In this document: in pieces, positions 23,301 to 60,604 of the stretch
Position numbering within the stretch: position 1 is the stretch's first letter
Layout of the letters: the number at the start of each line of letters is the position of its first letter
Origin: Aplysia californica
Taxonomy: Eukaryota
Length of the DNA stretch: 64,000 bases
Direction: 5' to 3'
Assembly: GCF_000002075.1 (NCBI RefSeq)
Contig: NW_004798408.1
Coordinates: 67,339-131,338 of the forward strand
Position numbers and translations under genes: made by a program
The notes under the pieces: generated by a model
What the model was told of the DNA's origin: nothing
Databases searched by the model: none
What the model saw: only the letters and a program-made list of their open reading frames with translations

Positions 23301-26300
23301 TTGTTGACCGGGAACTTTTTAAATTAAATAATGCAAGGTGATCAGCATATATCTTTTTTTTTTTTTTTTTTACTCTTTCCAGGTGGTGCCATTAAGTTTA
23401 TGAAAAATGAGAAGAATCCGATCACGCCCATCAACAAGTAGGTATAGCATTTAAGTGCTGAATATACTGAGCAGTTTATTAAAAATTACTGTATTCTTTT
23501 TTTTTTAAAGATGTATTTTCTGTTACTTTCTTTCACCTTCACTGTCTAATTCTTTAAGACACTTGTCTTTATTTTATGCGAGCAGTTTTGAGAGAAAGAC
23601 TTGTATGTCAGTGAATTACAAGAACAGAAAGTGGGTTGAAAAAAAAACCAACCCTCATAATTATATGTGGTTGTCGTCTCTGAGAAATTTCCTAAAAACT
23701 CTCACTGTTGTCTGTCCGGGAAATAGAGCTGCTGTTGTTGTTGCGCTTCCTACCTTTAGTCCAGTGTCATGGGGTTCTAGGAACTCAAGTTTTGTTCAAT
23801 TATTGTGTGTGGGTGATCGGCGGGTGCTGTGGTGTGGTGTGCTTTTTTCCCATAAAGCATCTGTCGTCTTTATCTCCCCTCCTTGTTTTTTATGTTTGTT
23901 ACTCTCTTGTAACAAGTCCGGGTTCAAGCCTCGATTCGGACACAGATTTTTTCCGCCCCCTCCTGCCCACCCAGCAGTAATGGGTACCTGACTTCGAGTT
24001 GGGGAAGTAAAGGCGGCGTGGAAAGGAACTGGCCACCCTACCACAATATGCCGAAGGTCCAGGAAGTTGTCTCACTAACAAGGCAGTCCTCAATGTCCGG
24101 ATTGGATGCGGGAACAGCTTTTCTTTTTACTCTCTTGTAACACCTCTAATCTTCGGCACTTATATGACCTTATTGTGTTGCAAGCGATGGAAACTCTTAC
24201 TAAAACAAACAAACAATTATTGTGAAGTTCCATTGGGTGTTTTCTATACATTTGATCTCAAAGAGAAATGAGTCACTATGATGTTCTTGTTCTTAAAAGT
24301 TGGAGGTATATTTTGGGGGGAAATATGTTTTGTTCTTTCCATCTTTCCTGCATGATTTGTTACATGTGAGTGAACAATGAATCTGTCAGAGATAGTATTG
24401 TCTTGTGTGTGTGTTCTATTTGCTGTGTATTTTTGTCTGTATTTCACTCCTCTCTTCCAGTCTTCCATCGTCTTTGTCTTTATCTATAATCTCACTCCTC
24501 TCTTCCAGTCTTCCATCGTCTTTGTCTATATCTATAATCTCACTCCTCTCTTCCAGTCTTCCATCGTTTTTGTCTATATCTATAATCTCACTCCTCTCTT
24601 CCAGTCTTCCATCGTCTTTGTCTATATCTATAATCTCACTCCTCTCTTCCAGTCTTCCATTGTCTTTGTCTATATCTATAATCTCACTCCTCTCTTCCAG
24701 TCTTCCGTCGTCTTTGTCTATATCTATAATCTCACTACTCTCTTCCAGTCTTCCATTGTCTTTGTCTATATCTATAATCTCACTCCTCGCTTCCAGTCTT
24801 CCATCGTCTTTGTCTATATCTATCATCTCACTACTCTCTTCCAGAATGCCCACATTACCCATCATGCTAGTCAACACAACAGTTCCCAGGAGCACCAAGG
24901 CGCTAGTGGCAAAGTTCCGACAGAAATACGACACGGTAAGTCTGTTTTTTATGCACACAGAAATATACTTTTAAAAACTAACATGTCAGGTACATGACAG
25001 TTGATGCTATATTTACAGCGAGTTAGTTTTGTAAGAATGAAAGGTCATAATATTAGTCAATGTGGCTGTCTTCTACTCAAATACCACAGACCTGTTGTAT
25101 AAAAATTGTGTTGCGACAATTCACTGATTGGCAGCAATGTGTCTGGTTTCCCAAACCAACTACTTACATACATTATTAGTTTATAGCTGTACCATATTTG
25201 AAGTGTGCTGATAAAATGAGTTACTTCTCGCAATCCACAAATGGAGATATTTGGCCTAAAATCGACATTTTGGTCAAATTTGTAGATATTCTCTATTGAT
25301 GCCATATTCTTTAAGTATAACATGCCTTTTTATTATTTCATACTTATAAATGATAAAACTTCACCTGTGAATGAGGTCGATGTATCTATTTCCATACGGC
25401 TGGAATCCGAGAAGCAACTCATTTTGTCGGCACCCTTCACATTTTTTAGTTGTCTCTTCCAAAGATGTAGGCCTATAGCCTAGAGATTTTTACCAAAGCT
25501 TGCTCAGCTAAAAATGAACTCCTCAAATTTGGGAATGACTTACTTCTGTTTCTCTCGTGGTTTCCCTCAGTACCGAGATGTGTGTGACCCCATCCTACAG
25601 GCCATGGAGTCTATTGCCAACAGGAGTCTGGACGTCTTTACTGAACTTTGCGATAAGCCCAGTGAAGGTTGCTATACGTCCCTCGCGGTAAGTTCAGAGC
25701 TTTGAATCATGAATGTTTTCCTGCACTGTGAATGGATCGCTGGAGTGCTTTGTCGTTCTTGTCCAAGGACAGACTTTTGAATTTCTTTCTTGTATTCAGA
25801 GAGTGAGGGAATTCCGTCAAATCTTGATAAAAGCTTTGTGTGGATTTGAAGACCAGGAGAGGACAAATATTGGTACTCTAAATTGATAACCCACTTTTTG
25901 TGTTGCGTGTACAGTAGTTCTAAAGTTTGTTTTGAATTTCATTTTGACAACAGACATATTTATAATTTTCCAAATAATGCTTATTTCAACAATCTGAACT
26001 AGGCTATACTGAATCAGGTTTGTAATATTTATATAAACTAACTGTAAACTATACAGCGTCGCATTAATAATAATTGTTACTGTACTGTATCACCAGTGTA
26101 TGAAACATTTTGTTACAGTCAACTGGACTACGTGTATCACTTTATAACGATCAAAGATACAACGCTATGTATAACATTTTGTTACAGTCAACTTTTACCG
26201 AATGTACCATTTTATAAGTTAACTGTACAGCGCTACATAGTGCATTTTGTAACATTTCGTACCACTTTGTAACATTTCGTAACATTTGGTAACTGCGCTA

Positions 26301-26611
26301 ACTCCCAGGACCTGGTGGACATGAACCAACAACTGCTGGACCTGATGGGCATGGGGCACCCCGCCCTCGACCAGATTGTCTCCGTCGCCGCCAAGAACGG
26401 ACTACACGCAAAGCTGACCGGCGCTGGTGGTGGTGGTTGTGCCTTCGTCCTTATTCCTCCGAGTAAGTTCTGTCGTTCCTTGTCTCCTTTTTTCTGTCAT
26501 TCCTTCTGTTGTTCCTTTTGTTCTTCTCTAACACTGACAGTTATGTCCTTGCTCCTAGGTCTGGTACACATTTTTTGTGTTGTGCTCTGTAAATGTGTCG
26601 GTCTGTGTGTG

Positions 26612-26644
<33 letters not shown>

Positions 26645-26923
26645 TTCTGTCTGTCTGTCCATCTGCCTGTCTGTCTGTCTGCCTGTCTGTCTGTTCTGGT
26701 GACGTTGATGGTTTTGCGGAGACACCTCATTTCGCATGCATTGATTAAAAAAAATTTTTTTTTACCTGCTCCATTCCTAGTAGAAAATGTTCTTTTCTTT
26801 TCTGACTTCCCAGGTACCGAGGCGTCTTGTCTGGAGAAGTTGAGGTCAGAGCTGGAGAGTTTGGGTCAACAGGTGTGGATGAACGCCACGGTGGGGGGTC
26901 ACGGGGTGCGCAGACATTTGTGA
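20279..26923 (+). CDS. MVK: Mevalonate kinase (GHMP kinase family); 10 coding exons, 391 aa
   Basis: join(20279..20365,21230..21383,21515..21665,22249..22354,22817..22967,23383..23437,24845..24935,25571..25687,26309..26462,26814..26923) = 1176 nt, all GT-AG, phases consistent. Motifs: [29 protein letters not shown] (ATP loop), [10 protein letters not shown] (catalytic Asp), [23 protein letters not shown]. Confidence 0.97.
21230..21383 (+). CDS. MVK: MVK exon 2
   Basis: [16 protein letters not shown]...LQFPDIG... Confidence 0.93.
21515..21665 (+). CDS. MVK: MVK exon 3
   Basis: ...[18 protein letters not shown]. Confidence 0.92.
22249..22354 (+). CDS. MVK: MVK exon 4
   Basis: [35 protein letters not shown]. 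Confidence 0.95.
22817..22967 (+). CDS. MVK: MVK exon 5
   Basis: FSGAINAE...[28 protein letters not shown]. Confidence 0.93.
23383..23437 (+). CDS. MVK: MVK exon 6
   Basis: [18 protein letters not shown], long polypyrimidine tract. Confidence 0.9.
23915..24126 (+). mobile_element. 5'-truncated SINE with RTE-like tail nested in a short retroposon, 16-bp TSD
   Basis: TSD TTACTCTCTTGTAACA at 23899-23914 and 24127-24142; B-box remnant GGTTCAAGCC, CACCCAGCAGTAATGGGTACC, ACTGGCCACCCTACC. Confidence 0.75.
24443..24844. repeat. 48-bp minisatellite (~8.4 units) made of the MVK exon 7 splice acceptor
   Basis: Unit CTCACTCCTCTCTTCCAGTCTTCCATCGTCTTTGTCTATATCTATAAT. Confidence 0.95.
24845..24935 (+). 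CDS. MVK: MVK exon 7
   Basis: [30 protein letters not shown]. Confidence 0.92.
25571..25687 (+). CDS. MVK: MVK exon 8
   Basis: [20 protein letters not shown]...YTSLA. Confidence 0.93.
26309..26462 (+). CDS. MVK: MVK exon 9
   Basis: [21 protein letters not shown]...[17 protein letters not shown]. Confidence 0.95.
26814..26923 (+). CDS. MVK: MVK exon 10 (last coding)
   Basis: [35 protein letters not shown]. Confidence 0.92.
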
Positions 26924-27065
26924 TGTTTCTCGGCCCGTGGGTGTGGGGAGGGGGTGAGGGGGGTCACGGAGTGCACAGACATTTGTGATGTTTCCCGGCC
27001 TGAGGGTGTGGGGAGGGGGGGGGGGGGTCACGAGCCACAGCTGAGCTCTGGGAGGAAGCCTCTAT

Positions 27066-27249
27066 CTGTCCCCGCGGTTTTATGCACCCAAAAAAATATT
27101 AGGAAATTGTACAAATTGAGCCCAAACATGTGAAATTATGCGATTCTGTTCATTTTAACACAGAATGACAACGGAAAATAATCCGAAATTATGCAAAAAA
27201 TGATAAAATTTTGCTTAATTATGCGGGGTGCATAAAACGGTGGGGACAG
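27066..27249. mobile_element. MITE, CTGTCCC-TIR family
   Basis: Clear terminal inverted repeats. Confidence 0.75.
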
Positions 27250-27925: not shown

Positions 27926-28412
27926 TAACTATCAAATTTTACCAAGAGTCTTTAGAAGTGTTTGTACCAGCTCTACGCAGGACTGCCAGAATTTTTTGAA
28001 TGGGTTATGGAAAAAGTGATTTGAATTGTTGTTGATTTTATGATTATTATTGTTTCAGGGTGTTTTTTCTTCTTAGAATAACAAATTCCTTTTCACACTT
28101 TCCTGTTACCATTCTTTGCTAACTATGACAGCCCATTTGTTCAACTTCCTAGGTGTTTATGTTATTTTGTGTGGATGGTTGGCGGGTGCTCTGGTGTGGT
28201 TTGCTCCTTCTTTCCTATCAAACATCTGTCGTTCTTATCTCTCCTCCTCCTTTTTGTGTTTGTTACTTTCTTGTAACACCTATATTCTTCGGCACTTATA
28301 TGACCTTATTGTGTTGTAAGTGCCGTTAAACTCTTACTAAAACTATAACTATGTTCTTTTGTGGTTGTGAAAGAACTTGATTTTGGCCGGGTTGAACAGG
28401 AAAGGGTTAAAT

Positions 28413-28471: not shown

Positions 28472-30048
28472 GCCTCTCTCCCCTTGGGTCAAGGAATCCG
28501 GCCACCAACAAACACTTTCCGTGAGTGGTTGGCGGGTGCTCTGGTGTGGTTTGCTTCTTCTTTCCTATCAAAATCTGTCATCCTTATTTTTTTATGTTTG
28601 TTACTCTCTTGTAACACCTCTAATCCTCTGGCGCTCATATGACCTTATGCAGTTGCGGGCGCCGCAAAACCTCTACTAAAACTTTTAAAAACATTTTCCG
28701 CTTTTCTCTATCCTGGGCTAGCTACCGCTCCCTGACTTTATTCCACGACTTTCCACTTTTCTCAACATCATTCTCTGTTTGTTACTCCTCTGGAAGTTCC
28801 ATAGGGTCTTTCTCTTCATCTCTTACCCTGTTGATTCCTGTCCAGCACTTTCTTTGTTAAATGATCTTTACTTTTCCGATCCAGCTTTCTTTGTTAAATG
28901 ATAAAATAGTCAAATATTTTTTGTTTGACTTTATGGGAAAGGAGGCAGTTTATTCTTTGCAACTTTATGCTCATAACATTGTTATTAATTATTGTCCCTT
29001 TGTGGAGAAAGAGGGAATTTCTCGAGTCACGAGCGATGGGTCAGGGTAGAATTGGTTTGTTCCTTGTTTCCTTTTGTTTTTTACGACAATCGCAAAAGAA
29101 CGCTCAAATGATGGGTGAGGAGCTCTCCCTCAGAGATTTGGCTTACTTCTGTGCCATACTTCTTGACTGACAGCTGATCACCTGTTTACTTGTTGTTGTT
29201 GTTGTTGTTTTTTTAAACATGACAAATTTTATTTTATTTAACTTTAATTTTATTCATGTCAACTTCTTGAAACCGGTGGCTCGTTTGCTCCATAGGACTA
29301 GGATGTAGTATTTTGAGGTGTTTGTACAAAATTCTGTAGAAGTACCATTATTAAAATAGTTGCAAATGAATTTTCACTTAAAAAACTGTACCCCTTATTA
29401 TAATCAAAATAGCATGAACATAAGAATCAACATTCCAGCCTCAAGCTTTGTATTATTTCTGTTTTGAATTAAAAGTATCTTGTGCAACCCTCACCCCCTA
29501 TCTAAATTGTCTGCTTACTGTTTGGGAATCGTAAAGAATTGCTTTGGTAAGGGGCTGAACCATTGCCCTACCGCAGAAGTACAAAGATCTATCTGACATT
29601 TTTGGCCGTTTTGAGTTACTACGACCGTGTGGTAAGATACCAAATATTCTATCTCAATCTGCTCTATCACAATCTTAAGATTTTTCGGAGTCATTATCAA
29701 GATATTCAAAGAATTGCTTTTGAAAAAGCTTGACTGACATGTTGTGGAACTCAACATCTTTGATGACAAATGTCTCAAAACTTGGCACTGAGCAGATAGA
29801 ACAGTGTAATTCTGAGGTAGCGATTGGTTTATGTGCTGGACAATTTCCTGGTTCCCAGAGTTGAGTATCAAACTATGCAATGTCGCTCTCGACATCGAAT
29901 ACTTTTTTGACTTGTAATGTCTTACGATGCTCAAATTCTTTGTCGTTTTGTGGTTTTTAAAATTGTTGTTTGTTGCAGAAATTAAACAGATATGAAGATG
30001 AACGAATAATTTCTTTGTCGCCTTTCCTTTTTTCTAGAGATGTGAGCT

Positions 30049-36400: not shown

Positions 36401-39346
36401 TTCAGACTCACTGTAAACTTAAACAGACCTCAGCAGAAAACTAGCATCAGAAACAAGATTCATACAAAGTGGCCACCAAGCAAAAAGATGAAAATGAAGT
36501 AGGAACAGGAAAACAATAACGCTCTCATCACAAAGTGAACGTAACACAGAGACAAACATCACAACATTTGTAGCAGATACAGCGGAGTTCCCTTGAAGCA
36601 GACTCCAGTGTGTAGGACAGCGAGGTGTATGGGAGGAAATGAGACTGCTTTCAGAGACGGTTTCCCTTTCTTCAACAGTACAAGCAGACTCCAGTGTGTG
36701 CAGGAGAGCAAGGTATAAGGGAGGAAATATGTGGTTTCCCTTTCTTCAACAATACAATCCTGTGTTCCCAAACAATTACCGTGGGCTTCAGAATCCACCA
36801 ACAGTCCAATAGAAAGCATCAAAGTAAACCCCAGAAGATTCTATCTCTTTGTCCTCCTTGCTTACAGCCCAAAAAACACATAACATGATTCCCCATAACA
36901 ACATCTTGCCACAAATTATGGTCCAAAAAGCATTTTCCTCTTTTTTCCAATTATACAGAAGTCCTCATCAACGATTTTCTCACGTATTTTGTAAAATGAA
37001 ACATTTTTATATTTAATAATAATAATAGATAGCATTTGTATAGTGCAAATCTCCGCTCAACAGCAAGCTCTATGCGCTTCACAATCTATACTATTACCCC
37101 AGCAGACCTGAGAGCATTCTGAAACAACCACAACTTTCTGGGAAGCATACAGTGCAAGCAGCCATTTACAGGTGCTAAAACAAAAAAACAAAAACAAAAA
37201 ATAACTTAAACCTTTTCTCAAAGAATTTTCCATCAGAAAAGCCCATTTCAAGATCTCTTGTGTAAGACAAAATTCTGACCAGTTGTCAAACACATTTTGT
37301 GAACATCATTTCTGAGCATCAGACCCACACAGTTGTGACATGACGAGGCAAGAAAGGAAACATTTTGCCGACTCCTGTCTATTCTTAGCTCTTGATCATT
37401 CTTTTTCTGACTAAAAGTATAACAACTCTGTGTCTCTTCAAAAATGTAGAAAATGAGCCCTGCGGGAGTTTAGGGAGGAAGGAGAGAGAGCATGGGAGAG
37501 GTACAGGAAGACAGACAGGGAGGGACAGGGAGGGAAAGGGGAAGGGAGAGACAGAAAAGGGGTGGGTGGAGGGACAGGGAAGGGAAGGGAGGGAGGAGGG
37601 GCAGGGACCAAAGTATAAATCCTTCACGCACATTTCTGTAGCAAACTGCAACACTTTGAGATGAAATATGACAATATGACATCAATATCTACGTTATCGT
37701 ACAAGAACCGGTATCGTAAGGACTATGACTTGACTGATATTGCAGAGAACAGCAACAATAGTCAGCTTTGACAGAACTGATCCAATGATATGTGTTCGAC
37801 ACGGTGAGTAAGTACATTGTACATTCATATCCTCCTCCGACCAGTCACGACAATGACAAAACACTTGTCATCTAAAGCCAAACACAAACTACGAGGACTT
37901 TGGTGTTATTTTGCTCCTTTGAACCTACTCGGTAACATGAACCAGGCATTTTGCCGGAAAAACAAAAATGCTCGGAAGAAATTTGTGAGTACATGGAGCG
38001 AGTTAACAAACGGTCCAAATTGTCGGAGACAGCCACACATTGTTGAGGAGAACACTGGCTGAGCAAGACAGGTGGATGTCTTGCACAGCGTCTATGATGT
38101 GAAAAAACAGACGCGAGGGGGGAGGAGGGAGGGGGGGAGGGAGGAGGGGGAGATGGGAAGTGGCTGGTTATACAGGCGATTGTCTTAGACAGGTGGCCGT
38201 TAGAGCAAGTTGGACCATATTTGTAACGAAGTAAAGAGCTGACAATCTGTGATGTGCTCCGCTGTAAATCACACTCCTTGCGATAAACTCTTCACTGAAC
38301 AGGTATCTTGCATATATATGAAATGGCTTCATTTTCTCTACGATATATGGTACTCTTATACAAGATTGATTCATTTATTCCTAAAATGCATTTCAATGTC
38401 CTAAATTATTTAATTTATTCGCAAATTTAAAAAATCACTTTCATTTCCATTTCAAAGACTTCAAATTCATGAGATTCGCTTCAATGACCACTAGCAATGT
38501 ACAACAAGCAATATTTGAATAAGGAGAATGAGAAATCTGTACGGTACCTCACTTCGCATTGTGCAGAAAAATGCCTGGGACTATTTTTTTAATCTTTAGC
38601 GGCACGAAAGCTGTCCCCATTCTTACGTCTGCTTTTTCTCCATGAAAACTGCAAGCTCTCTTTCTCTCTCTTTACACACACACAAATACAGTCTCCCTCT
38701 TTCTCTCTCTCTCTCTCTCCAGACATAAATACAGACATCCCCCCCCTCTCTTTCCTAAACACACATAAACACTCACACACTAATTCACTTGTTCAAATCA
38801 CATTCACATACTCACTCTTTCTTTCCCTCTCTCACTCCTATATAAATACAAACACAAACATTCAAACACATCCATATTCCAGCTTTGTGAGTGTGTGTAG
38901 ATCTCTGACAAAGACAGAGTGAATGACAAAAACTAAAAAATTTGCCTTGTATTGCATGGAGTGAGCTAATGTAGGATGACAATTTAACATCAGTGAAAAG
39001 TTTTGTCGAAGGTTTCATGTGGACAATTTTACTGTTTTGATCTGTTAAAATATGATATGTTCATTATTCCAAGCTTGTTGGTAATATCTTCTTGTTCCCC
39101 TCCCTCCCCAGTAAAACATTGAAACCCCCCCCCCAAAAAAAAAGAAAACACAAAAAAACCTGTATCTCCCACCCCCCCCCCTTCCCCCACAAACACAAAT
39201 ATCAACTGGACCCCATTAAACAAAAAGCCAACAACAAATCTCCAATCAGAGCTAGACTTCATACAACAGACATTTTTCCTCACGTTGAGATCTTTCAATC
39301 TTTCACAGAGGCACCATACTCCATCTGTCTTCTGTGCTATACCATC

Positions 39347-40045
39347 ACAGCATCGTTATATCGGTGCTATGAAGGCACAGCATCGTTATATCGGTGCTAT
39401 GAGGGCACAACATCGTTATGTCGATACTATACAGTCACAACATCGTTATGTCGATACTATACAGTCACAACATCGTTATGTCGATACTATACAGTCACAG
39501 CATCGTTATGTCGATACTATACAGTCACAGCATCGTTATGTCGATACTATACAGTCACAGCATCGTTATGTCGATACTATACAGTCACAGCATCGTTATG
39601 TCGATACTATACAGTCACAGCATCGTTATATCGGTGCTATGAGGGCAGAGCATCGTTATGTCGATACTATACCGTCACAGCATCGTTATATCGGTACTAT
39701 GAAGGCACAACATCGTTATGTCGCAGTCACAGCATCATTACATCGGTACTTTACAGTCACAGCATCGTTATATCGGCACTATGCAAGCACAGCATCGTTT
39801 TATCGGTGTTATGCGGGCACAGCATCATTATATCGCAGTCACAGTATCGTTATATCGGATGTTGTAACTATGATATGTAGTCACAGCATCATTACATTTA
39901 TATCGGAACTATGCAGTCACAGCATCGTTATAGCATCGTTATGTCGCAGTCACAGCATCATTATAGCATGGTAATGTCGCAGTCACAGCATCACAGCATG
40001 GTAATGTCACAGTCACAGCATCACAGCATGGTAATGTCACAGTCC
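39347..40045. repeat. 30-bp minisatellite with degenerate flanks, starting at the HPS4 stop codon
   Basis: Unit CAGCATCGTTATGTCGATACTATACAGTCA. Confidence 0.95.
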
Positions 40046-59200: not shown

Positions 59201-60604
59201 TCCTCTTTAGGGAGGAAGACATAGAGGAGCCGCACCCCGCCGGGCAGTTCTAGGACTGCTGTCAGGTCATCCACAGCGAGGGATTGCGGAGGAGGGAGGG
59301 TGGTGGGAGGGGAGTGGGGGAGAGCGGAAGGGGTGGAGGGAAGAGGAGAGGGGAAGGGGAGGGGGAGGGGGGAGAGGAGAGGGAAGGGGAGGGGGGAAGG
59401 AGAGGAGGGAGGGGGGTTATAAGGCAAGATGGTTTGAGAGGAAAAGAGAGAAAATTGGGGGGGGGGGGGTTGGAGGTGGTGGTGTGGCAGAAAATCAAGA
59501 AAAGATTATCATAAAGTACATGCAAGTGTTCTTCTGAGGACAATAAAAAAAAGTAACTTTATGAGCACATTTTAAAAGTAAGAAATATCCTGTCCAAGGT
59601 CTCAAGGTCTCAAATTCAAAAGTCATAGGTTCATCTCTTCACTGTATATTGAAGAAAGTTGTGATTTAAAGACTTAGGTGACACTCTTAGCAAAGGTTTG
59701 CCCTGCCTACAAGCTAGGCTTTTCTTTAGATGCTTAGGGTGAAGTTTGTGAGTCGGGACGGGTGGGGGGTGACTTGTCTACTGGGTTAACTTCAAAATTG
59801 GAATGTTTTTTTAGATTAAGTTAGTGTTTTGCGGCACTTGCAGCACAATAAGGTCATATAAGTGCCACAGACTAGAGGTGTTGCAAGAGAGTAACAAACA
59901 CAATAAGGTCATATAAGTGCCACAGACTAGAGGTGTTGCAAGAGAGTAACAAACACAATAAGGTCATATAAGTGCCACAGATTAGAGGTGTTGCAAGAGA
60001 GTAACAAACACAATAAGGTCATATAAGTGCCACAGATTAGAGGTGTTGCAAGAGAGTAACAAACACAATAAGGTCATATAAGTGCCACAGATTAGAGGTG
60101 TTGCAAGAGAGTAACAAACAGAAAAAAAAGGAGGAGAGATCAGGAAAATAGATGTTTGATAGGAAAGAAGGAGCAAAATTGGAATGTATCTCAACTCAGT
60201 ACTTTCATTTTAGTTATAACCAGACAAAGCCAACAGATGATTAACGATCAGCGTAAACTCAAAAACTATAACATCACTGTCCTTGTAATATCATTTTCGT
60301 TAGCACTTGACGAACACCACAGAAAATAACCGATCAGCGCAAACTCAACAACTATAATAATGTGGAATCAGTAAACACATTGCCATACTCACAGGAGTTC
60401 GCTCGGACACAGGGGAACTGAAACAAAGTTTAGAACATGGGAGGTCATGGGAGGTCACAGGAGGTCATGGGAGGTGACAGGAGGTCATAAACACATAACA
60501 GGAGTTTCAAATTAATAAACTGTTTTCAACCAAGAGATGGGAAATTTTAAAAAATCCCAACAGTGTAAATTTTATTTTTATTAATATTAATAATAATAAT
60601 AATG

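What the first reader, a model, noticed from the sequence alone, without database searches (positions are those of the whole stretch)
24443..24844. Nine in-frame splice acceptors in a 48-bp minisatellite before MVK exon 7
Seen: each unit carries a branch-like CTCAC, a polypyrimidine tract and TTCCAG. The AGs end at 24460 + 48n up to 24844, and only the last gives the canonical exon. The unit is a multiple of 3 and stop-free in the MVK frame (ORF 24405..24974). Any upstream acceptor would therefore insert 16n aa of Ser/Leu/Ile-rich sequence ([16 protein letters not shown]) near the inter-domain region. Inference: this is either a VNTR-tunable isoform ladder or a natural test of how the spliceosome skips eight near-identical decoys through exon definition.
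Basis: partly seen in the sequence, partly recalled or inferred. Interest (0 to 1): 0.7.

Follow-up and report, generated by a model that had tools for sequence, protein, structure and literature searches.

The report
Silent repeated splice acceptors in MVK
The last 48 bases of an intron in a sea-hare mevalonate kinase gene are repeated about eight times, giving nine look-alike splice acceptors, but the assembled transcripts examined join only to the last one, so the extra copies are likely silent passengers of a kind already known from human and lancelet genes.

Summary
The array is real: 8.4 copies of a 48-bp unit (24444-24844) and nine AGs at 24460+48n, all in frame and stop-free. The gene is Aplysia californica mevalonate kinase; my 10-exon model equals the 391-aa database protein. 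Spliced contigs from two studies join exon 6 directly to 24845, and none of the 4 runs laid there has a contig joining exon 6 to a repeat unit. In the deepest run the repeat lies at depth 3.6, against 196 for the exon and 3-8.7 for the intron. The isoform ladder is therefore not supported, though contigs drop rare forms and no raw reads covered the junction. The open frame is likely chance (about 1 in 4), and 120 of 120 homologues keep this segment at 21-24 residues. Decoys look as strong as the real site, so exon definition likely picks the exon-adjacent AG (inferred). It works like amphioxus 'mirage' and human F7 minisatellites, but its unit holds no exon bases. The scan noted similar arrays before in other genomes. 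Low interest.

The parts
20279..26923 (+). Mevalonate kinase gene, 10 coding exons, 391 aa
   Evidence: Exon model translates to exactly P0001, named mevalonate kinase of Aplysia californica by its sources; E 1e-85 to human 2r3v; Pfam GHMP N and C domains.
23383..23437 (+). Exon 6 (55 nt), phase-2 donor at 23437
   Evidence: its 3' end is the loose end in front of 24845 in contigs of X4 and X9.
24413..24460 (+). Degenerate boundary unit with the first AG (24460); longest AG-free zone (63 nt)
   Evidence: Aligns to the unit over its last 29 nt with a 7-nt gap; similarity outside the 17-nt terminal match is weak (372 of 5000 shuffles reach it).
24444..24844 (+). 48-bp minisatellite, 8.4 copies, purely intronic, ending exactly at the intron end; found only here in the genome
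   Evidence: units differ from the majority unit by 0-2 nt; a 27-nt unit pattern gives 7 matches genome-wide, all in this array; DNA search likewise.
24459..24796 (+). Eight unused look-alike acceptors (AG ends 24460, 24508, 24556, 24604, 24652, 24700, 24748, 24796), all CAG followed by T
   Evidence: no contig from exon 6 to a unit in 4 of 4 runs.
24797..24844 (+). Last unit, holding the authentic acceptor (AG ends 24844, followed by A)
   Evidence: Spliced contigs of X4 (depth 195.6) and X9 (6.87) begin at 24845 behind exon 6 letters.
24845..24935 (+). Exon 7 (91 nt), codons 235-265
   Evidence: X4 contig positions 671-761 follow exon 5 at 463-614 with exactly the 56 nt expected between.

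Best explanation
An intronic minisatellite has amplified the last 48 bases of MVK intron 6, so the real acceptor is preceded by eight look-alike copies, and the spliced contigs examined use only the last one, likely because the spliceosome defines exon 7 from its downstream side and takes the acceptor next to real exon sequence. Shown: the anatomy, the open frame, and splicing of exon 6 to 24845. Inferred: (1) origin by slippage or unequal exchange seeded on a short local duplication at the intron end; (2) selection of the last AG by cross-exon pairing with the exon 7 donor (91-nt exon, against 139-475 nt for the decoys) and by exon-type sequence behind it, whereas each decoy AG is followed by 75-79% pyrimidine sequence with 2-4 TCTT words, which would read as more intron; (3) the array is a tolerated passenger.
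For: X4: one 868-nt contig at depth 195.6 carries exon 5, exon 6 and exon 7 with no room for an insert. X9, another study, has the same joint. In one search, whose tables are complete, 0 of 9 laid contigs in 4 runs show exon 6 letters before a unit. In X4 the unit contig has depth 3.58 (1.8% of the exon), no more than intron contigs at 3 and 8.7, and the bin over unit 1 equals that 3.58 exactly. The inserts are stop-free, so decay of nonsense mRNA would not hide them (inference). The database holds one 391-aa form. The segment G218-L243 has 21 residues in 112, 22 in 2 and 24 in 6 of 120 MVK proteins, and 0 of the 267 fetched proteins hold the repeat peptide. Decoys have 14-15 pyrimidines in 17 positions against 14 for the real site, so tract strength does not choose. 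Precedents: mirage repeats do not disturb splicing (PMC3087553, passages); in F7 only the exon-adjacent site is used (PMC1557585); a duplicated CBS intron 7/exon 8 junction uses the distal copy (PMC2630376, passage).
Against: The RNA evidence is assembled contigs, which drop rare variants; no read counts exist for this junction. In X9 the unit contig is 2.3 against 6.87 for the exon (ratio 0.33) with no flanking intron contig, and X19 holds the unit contig but no exon 7 contig; collapse of about eight copies explains this but is not shown. One search hid 89 joints, 1059 loose ends and 18120 pieces. The T after each decoy AG cannot be the whole reason: 2 of the 8 other real acceptors also have T. 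In human CBS intron 13 and the 6-16 gene two pseudo-sites are used besides the real one (PMC1557585 Introduction). No splicing enhancer or silencer was tested.
Confidence: 0.82

Rival explanations
1. Leaky use: the nearest one or two decoys (24796, 24748) are used in a small share of transcripts, giving +16 or +32 aa forms that escape decay but are noise.
For: Decoys match the real site in tract and branch-like motif; frame open; two pseudo-sites are used in CBS and 6-16; contigs drop rare forms. Compatible with the best explanation if below about 2%.
Against: No such contig in X4 at exon depth 196 or in X9.
Confidence: 0.12
2. Regulated or copy-number-tuned isoform ladder: upstream acceptors are used on purpose to lengthen the segment between the two kinase domains.
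For: Period divisible by 3 and stop-free frame; the joint (K235, human R226) lies between the Pfam N (128-218) and C (298-369) domains; depth in X1 hints at a different array from the reference.
Against: Open frame expected about 1 time in 4; 0 of 120 homologues carry more than 3 extra residues here; the insert is hydrophobic (mean Kyte-Doolittle 1.38, best 19-mer 1.83), unlike a soluble linker; only the canonical joint seen.
Confidence: 0.03
3. The array does not add acceptors in use but weakens exon 7 recognition, so its length tunes intron retention or exon 7 skipping (91 nt, a frameshift) and hence MVK dose.
For: Eight extra pyrimidine tracts could bind splicing factors (inference); intronic VNTRs that affect splicing are reported (PMC5954066, PMC10078293; search listings only).
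Against: Intron 6 contigs in X4 are no deeper than intron 7 contigs (3-3.6 against 8.7). Exon skipping and genotype were not tested.
Confidence: 0.02
4. The array is an assembly artefact.
For: Copy number is not confirmed by any long read; X1 depth disagrees with the reference.
Against: Unit-to-unit contigs in 4 of 4 runs; X1 (probably DNA, with its own substitutions at 24935 and 24956) runs from the last unit through exon 7 into intron 7, and its unit contigs are 8-10 times deeper than the unique contig; reference units carry distinct variants.
Confidence: 0.01

Closest known systems
Amphioxus 'mirage' minisatellites (Adh3, globin BflGb6 and BflGb9; PMC3087553, passages read; the Adh3 paper itself not seen)
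   Same: Tandem copies of a gene's own splice junction, units 81-100% alike and 10-160 bp long, many with intact AG, regular splicing undisturbed; BflGb6 is also acceptor-side.
   Different: Mirage units comprise intron end plus exon start. This unit stops at the AG and holds no exon 7 sequence. Mollusc, not lancelet; length variation not shown here.
Human F7 intron 7 37-bp VNTR (PMC1557585; abstract, Introduction and Discussion read)
   Same: The terminal monomer holds the authentic site; 4-8 identical pseudo-sites stay silent; the site next to the exon wins, even where some pseudo-sites would keep the frame open.
   Different: Donor side; unit includes 4 exon bases; known to be polymorphic; mechanism tested by mutagenesis. 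A 5'-to-3' scan, the authors' model, would pick the first AG here, not the last.
Human CBS 844ins68 (PMC2630376; passages read)
   Same: A duplicated intron/exon junction in which splicing uses the distal copy and restores normal mRNA.
   Different: One 68-bp duplication including exon sequence, not an array.

Membership tests
Amphioxus mirage minisatellites | Unit spans the exon-intron boundary (intron end plus exon start) | tested here: not met
   Array ends at 24844; unit start against exon 7 start 10 of 31 identical; best local match reached by 3604 of 5000 shuffles.
Amphioxus mirage minisatellites | Minisatellite-like tandem, units 10-160 bp, 81-100% alike | tested here: met
   48 bp, 95%.
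Amphioxus mirage minisatellites | Repeats keep AG or GT splice signals | tested here: met
   9 of 9 sites end in TTCCAG.
Amphioxus mirage minisatellites | Regular splicing undisturbed | tested here: met
   Canonical joint in X4 and X9, at contig resolution.
Amphioxus mirage minisatellites | Length instability between haplotypes or cells | tested here: inconclusive
   X1 unit contigs 8.2 and 10.5 times the unique depth against 2.4 and 3.6 expected from the reference; contig depth is no copy number, and a collapsed assembly would look the same.
F7-type splice-site VNTR | Terminal monomer holds the authentic site and its sequence is reiterated in the intron | tested here: met
F7-type splice-site VNTR | Monomer includes exon bases; donor side | tested here: not met
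   No exon bases; acceptor side.
F7-type splice-site VNTR | Pseudo-sites become active when the authentic site is mutated | not testable with these tools
   Needs a minigene.
Recursive (ratchet) splice sites | AG followed at once by GT, remaking a donor (definition recalled) | tested here: not met
   Each decoy AG is followed by TCT; no GT in the array has a donor-like context by eye.
Mevalonate kinase (GHMP family) | Full-length similarity and GHMP N and C domains | tested here: met

The most novel reading that the evidence does not exclude
In some tissues or in animals with longer alleles, upstream acceptors are used enough to make a 16-aa-step ladder of mevalonate kinase forms that escape decay, so that repeat number tunes the share of active enzyme.
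Probability: 0.05. Interest if true: 0.6.

Novelty: new variant of a known kind. Interest (0 to 1): 0.2.

Why it matters
As it stands it is a tidy natural control. Nine acceptors with near-identical upstream sequence differ only in what follows the AG, and the last is chosen, which points to downstream (exon-side) information and away from a first-AG scan. That principle is established, and related arrays are in print for lancelet and human genes. The small twist is that the unit carries no exon bases, so the decoys lack any exon-side signal. It would matter more only if allele length changed MVK splicing.

Tried and rejected
Run search: no listed holder on record as RNA; X4 and X9 are taken as RNA because their contigs skip introns. 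Raw-read runs X21-X23 gave depth 0 over exon 6 and the first unit and at most 2 over exon 5: uninformative; their reads lay on dispersed repeats in introns 5 and 6. X19 has no exon 7 contig: uninformative on the joint. 7 of the 24 listed runs were laid. First exon models had off-by-one ends, corrected; the translations and the stop counts per isoform are in the wrong frame and not used. In one search the True/False anchor flag was mis-indexed; the segment lengths are unaffected. A search with exon 9 alone found nothing, and single exons matched no Pfam family: queries too short. The structure prediction of P0001 had not returned, so no model was seen; the position between the domains rests on Pfam ranges and on a recalled border near residue 225 of rat MVK, which the passages of PMC10910542 did not give. 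RNA folding of the array gave weak structure (28% paired, no shuffle control): masking by structure not pursued. T after the AG as sole cause: rejected. Recursive splicing: rejected. A paper recalled on introns from tandem arrays was not held and is not used. PMC2812944: outline only, not used. A search for acceptor-side minisatellites with four terms gave 0 papers; searches listed no paper on this Aplysia locus in the rows shown, but none searched for it by name, so I do not claim it is absent from print. Supplements of PMC3087553 (unit alignments) were not opened and could show how much exon the mirage units carry.

Full report
1. Observation. TRF reports a 48-bp array at 24444-24844, 8.4 copies, 95% matches. 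Nine AGs end at 24460+48n, each as TTCCAG, and no other AG lies between 24396 and 24844. A CTCAC motif stands 15 nt before the AG in 8 of 9 sites; the first has TTCAC. The eight full units differ from their majority by 0-2 nt. A 27-nt unit pattern with one mismatch finds 7 places in the 927-Mb genome, all in this array, so the unit is local, not part of a dispersed element (one search agrees, with the caveat that it skips common words).

2. The gene. Ten exons (20279-26923) give 391 aa, identical to P0001, which its sources call mevalonate kinase of Aplysia californica, one member in its cluster. It aligns over its length to rat and human MVK structures. Intron 6 is 1407 nt and phase 2. Each of the nine AGs keeps the frame, adding 16n residues and turning K235 to N. 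K235 aligns to human R226 and lies between the Pfam N domain (128-218) and C domain (298-369).

3. Is the open frame meaningful? Probably not. 70% of shuffled units are stop-free in a given frame, 2 of 3 frames of the unit are open, and one period in three is divisible by 3: about 1 in 4 jointly. The insert is hydrophobic. Among 120 MVK proteins (P0001 and the other 119 best hits listed, of 2473 found), the segment G218-L243 has 21 residues in 112, 22 in 2 and 24 in 6; none has more, and no fetched protein holds the repeat peptide. The best-hit list leans against forms with large inserts.

4. Which acceptor is used? Seven of 24 listed runs were laid. The three raw-read runs do not cover the junction. 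In X4 one 868-nt contig of depth 195.6 holds exon 5 at positions 463-614 and exon 7 at 671-761, with exon 6 letters before 24845 and exon 8 letters behind 24935; 671 is the position predicted without insert. X9, from another study, has the same joint at depth 6.87. In one search, where nothing is hidden, none of the 9 contigs laid from 4 runs shows exon 6 letters before a unit, although the stretch began 27 nt before AG 24796 so that such a joint would show. The unit appears in X4, X9 and X19 only as a 78-nt contig running from one unit into the next, at depth 3.58, 2.3 and 2.9. In X4 that is 1.8% of the exon and within the intron background of 3 and 8.7. Against my reading: in X9 the ratio is 0.33 with no flanking intron contig; contigs drop rare forms; one search hid most rows; and only 1.35 and 1.6 units of the array were laid. 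Because the inserts are stop-free, their absence would not be due to nonsense decay (inference).

5. Is it real and variable? X1, probably DNA, has a unique contig (depth 43.3) from the last unit through exon 7 into intron 7 with substitutions at 24935 and 24956, and unit contigs at 456 and 357. The tandem is therefore real outside the assembly. The ratios, 10.5 and 8.2, are about three times the 31-mer multiplicities of the reference, 3.6 and 2.4. A longer or more uniform allele, or a collapsed assembly, would each explain that; contig depth is not a copy number, so 'VNTR' remains untested.

6. Mechanism. Upstream sequence cannot choose: decoys have 14-15 pyrimidines in positions -20 to -4 against 14 for the real site, the same CAG, and the same 46-nt AG-free zone; the first decoy has the longest zone, 63 nt. 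Each unit has its own branch-like motif, so a scan to the first AG behind a branch point does not single out the last, and a scan from the 5' side would pick the first. What differs lies downstream. The real AG is followed by A, by 52% pyrimidine sequence without TCTT, and by a donor 91 nt on; decoys by T, by 75-79% pyrimidine sequence with 2-4 TCTT words, and by the same donor 139-475 nt on. T after the AG occurs at 2 of the 8 other real acceptors, so it can only contribute. I commit to cross-exon definition with exon-bound enhancers favouring the nearest AG (general splicing knowledge, recalled; TCTT as a PTB-type word is recalled too). This step is inferred. No AG is followed by GT, so recursive splicing is out. 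Origin, inferred: the flank before the array aligns to the last 29 nt of the unit with a 7-nt gap (weak outside the terminal 17 nt, 372 of 5000 shuffles), and the unit opens with a 7-nt copy of the letters that precede the final G, which fits a short local duplication later amplified by slippage or unequal exchange.

7. Base rate. The window holds 9 arrays of period 20 or more with 3 or more copies, 4.6% of its bases; an array end falls within one unit of a given acceptor with odds near 0.7%, and within one base near 0.04%. Over the many acceptors of a genome such cases are expected by the dozens to hundreds (rough inference from one window).

8. Known kinds. Amphioxus mirages are tandem repeats of exon-intron boundaries with intact signals that do not disturb splicing (PMC3087553, passages). 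Human F7, LAMIN B2 and PDGF minisatellites repeat a donor and use only the authentic one; CBS and 6-16 use two pseudo-sites as well (PMC1557585, abstract, Introduction, Discussion). CBS 844ins68 uses the distal copy of a duplicated junction (PMC2630376, passages). This array works like them but fails one defining feature: its unit contains no exon sequence. I file it as a minor variant. Earlier notes of this scan describe like arrays in other genomes and a donor-side one in this genome; they gave me the term 'mirage' and are not counted as support.

9. Verdict. Observation confirmed; ladder not supported; decoys likely silent (0.82). Interest 0.2.

Noticed in passing
window 26893-27032: 65-bp tandem duplication (2.2 copies) covering the last MVK codons and the stop codon (ends 26923), so the protein's end is copied into the 3' UTR.
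   Followed up: no
window 24935 and 24956: Run X1 has G>A at the last base of exon 7 (donor -1) and C>A at 24956; X4 shares the second in an intron contig but has G at 24935 in its spliced contig.
   Followed up: no
window 25575: The X4 contig reads A for G early in exon 8 (loose-end letters), which would change Arg to Gln at codon 267.
   Followed up: no
window about 22970-23250 and 23800-24220: High-copy dispersed repeats in introns 5 and 6 that draw thousands of polyA reads from elsewhere; look-alike pieces by eye at about 27070-27240, 28150-28350 and 28520-28680.
   Followed up: no
window 23400-23420 (exon 6): The Aplysia protein has 3 extra residues in the exon 6 segment, shared by 6 of 120 homologues.
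   Followed up: partly
window 47578-48750, 39337-39835, 59844-60120, 46679-46890: Other minisatellites (periods 66, 30, 55, 45); their relation to exons was not examined.
   Followed up: no
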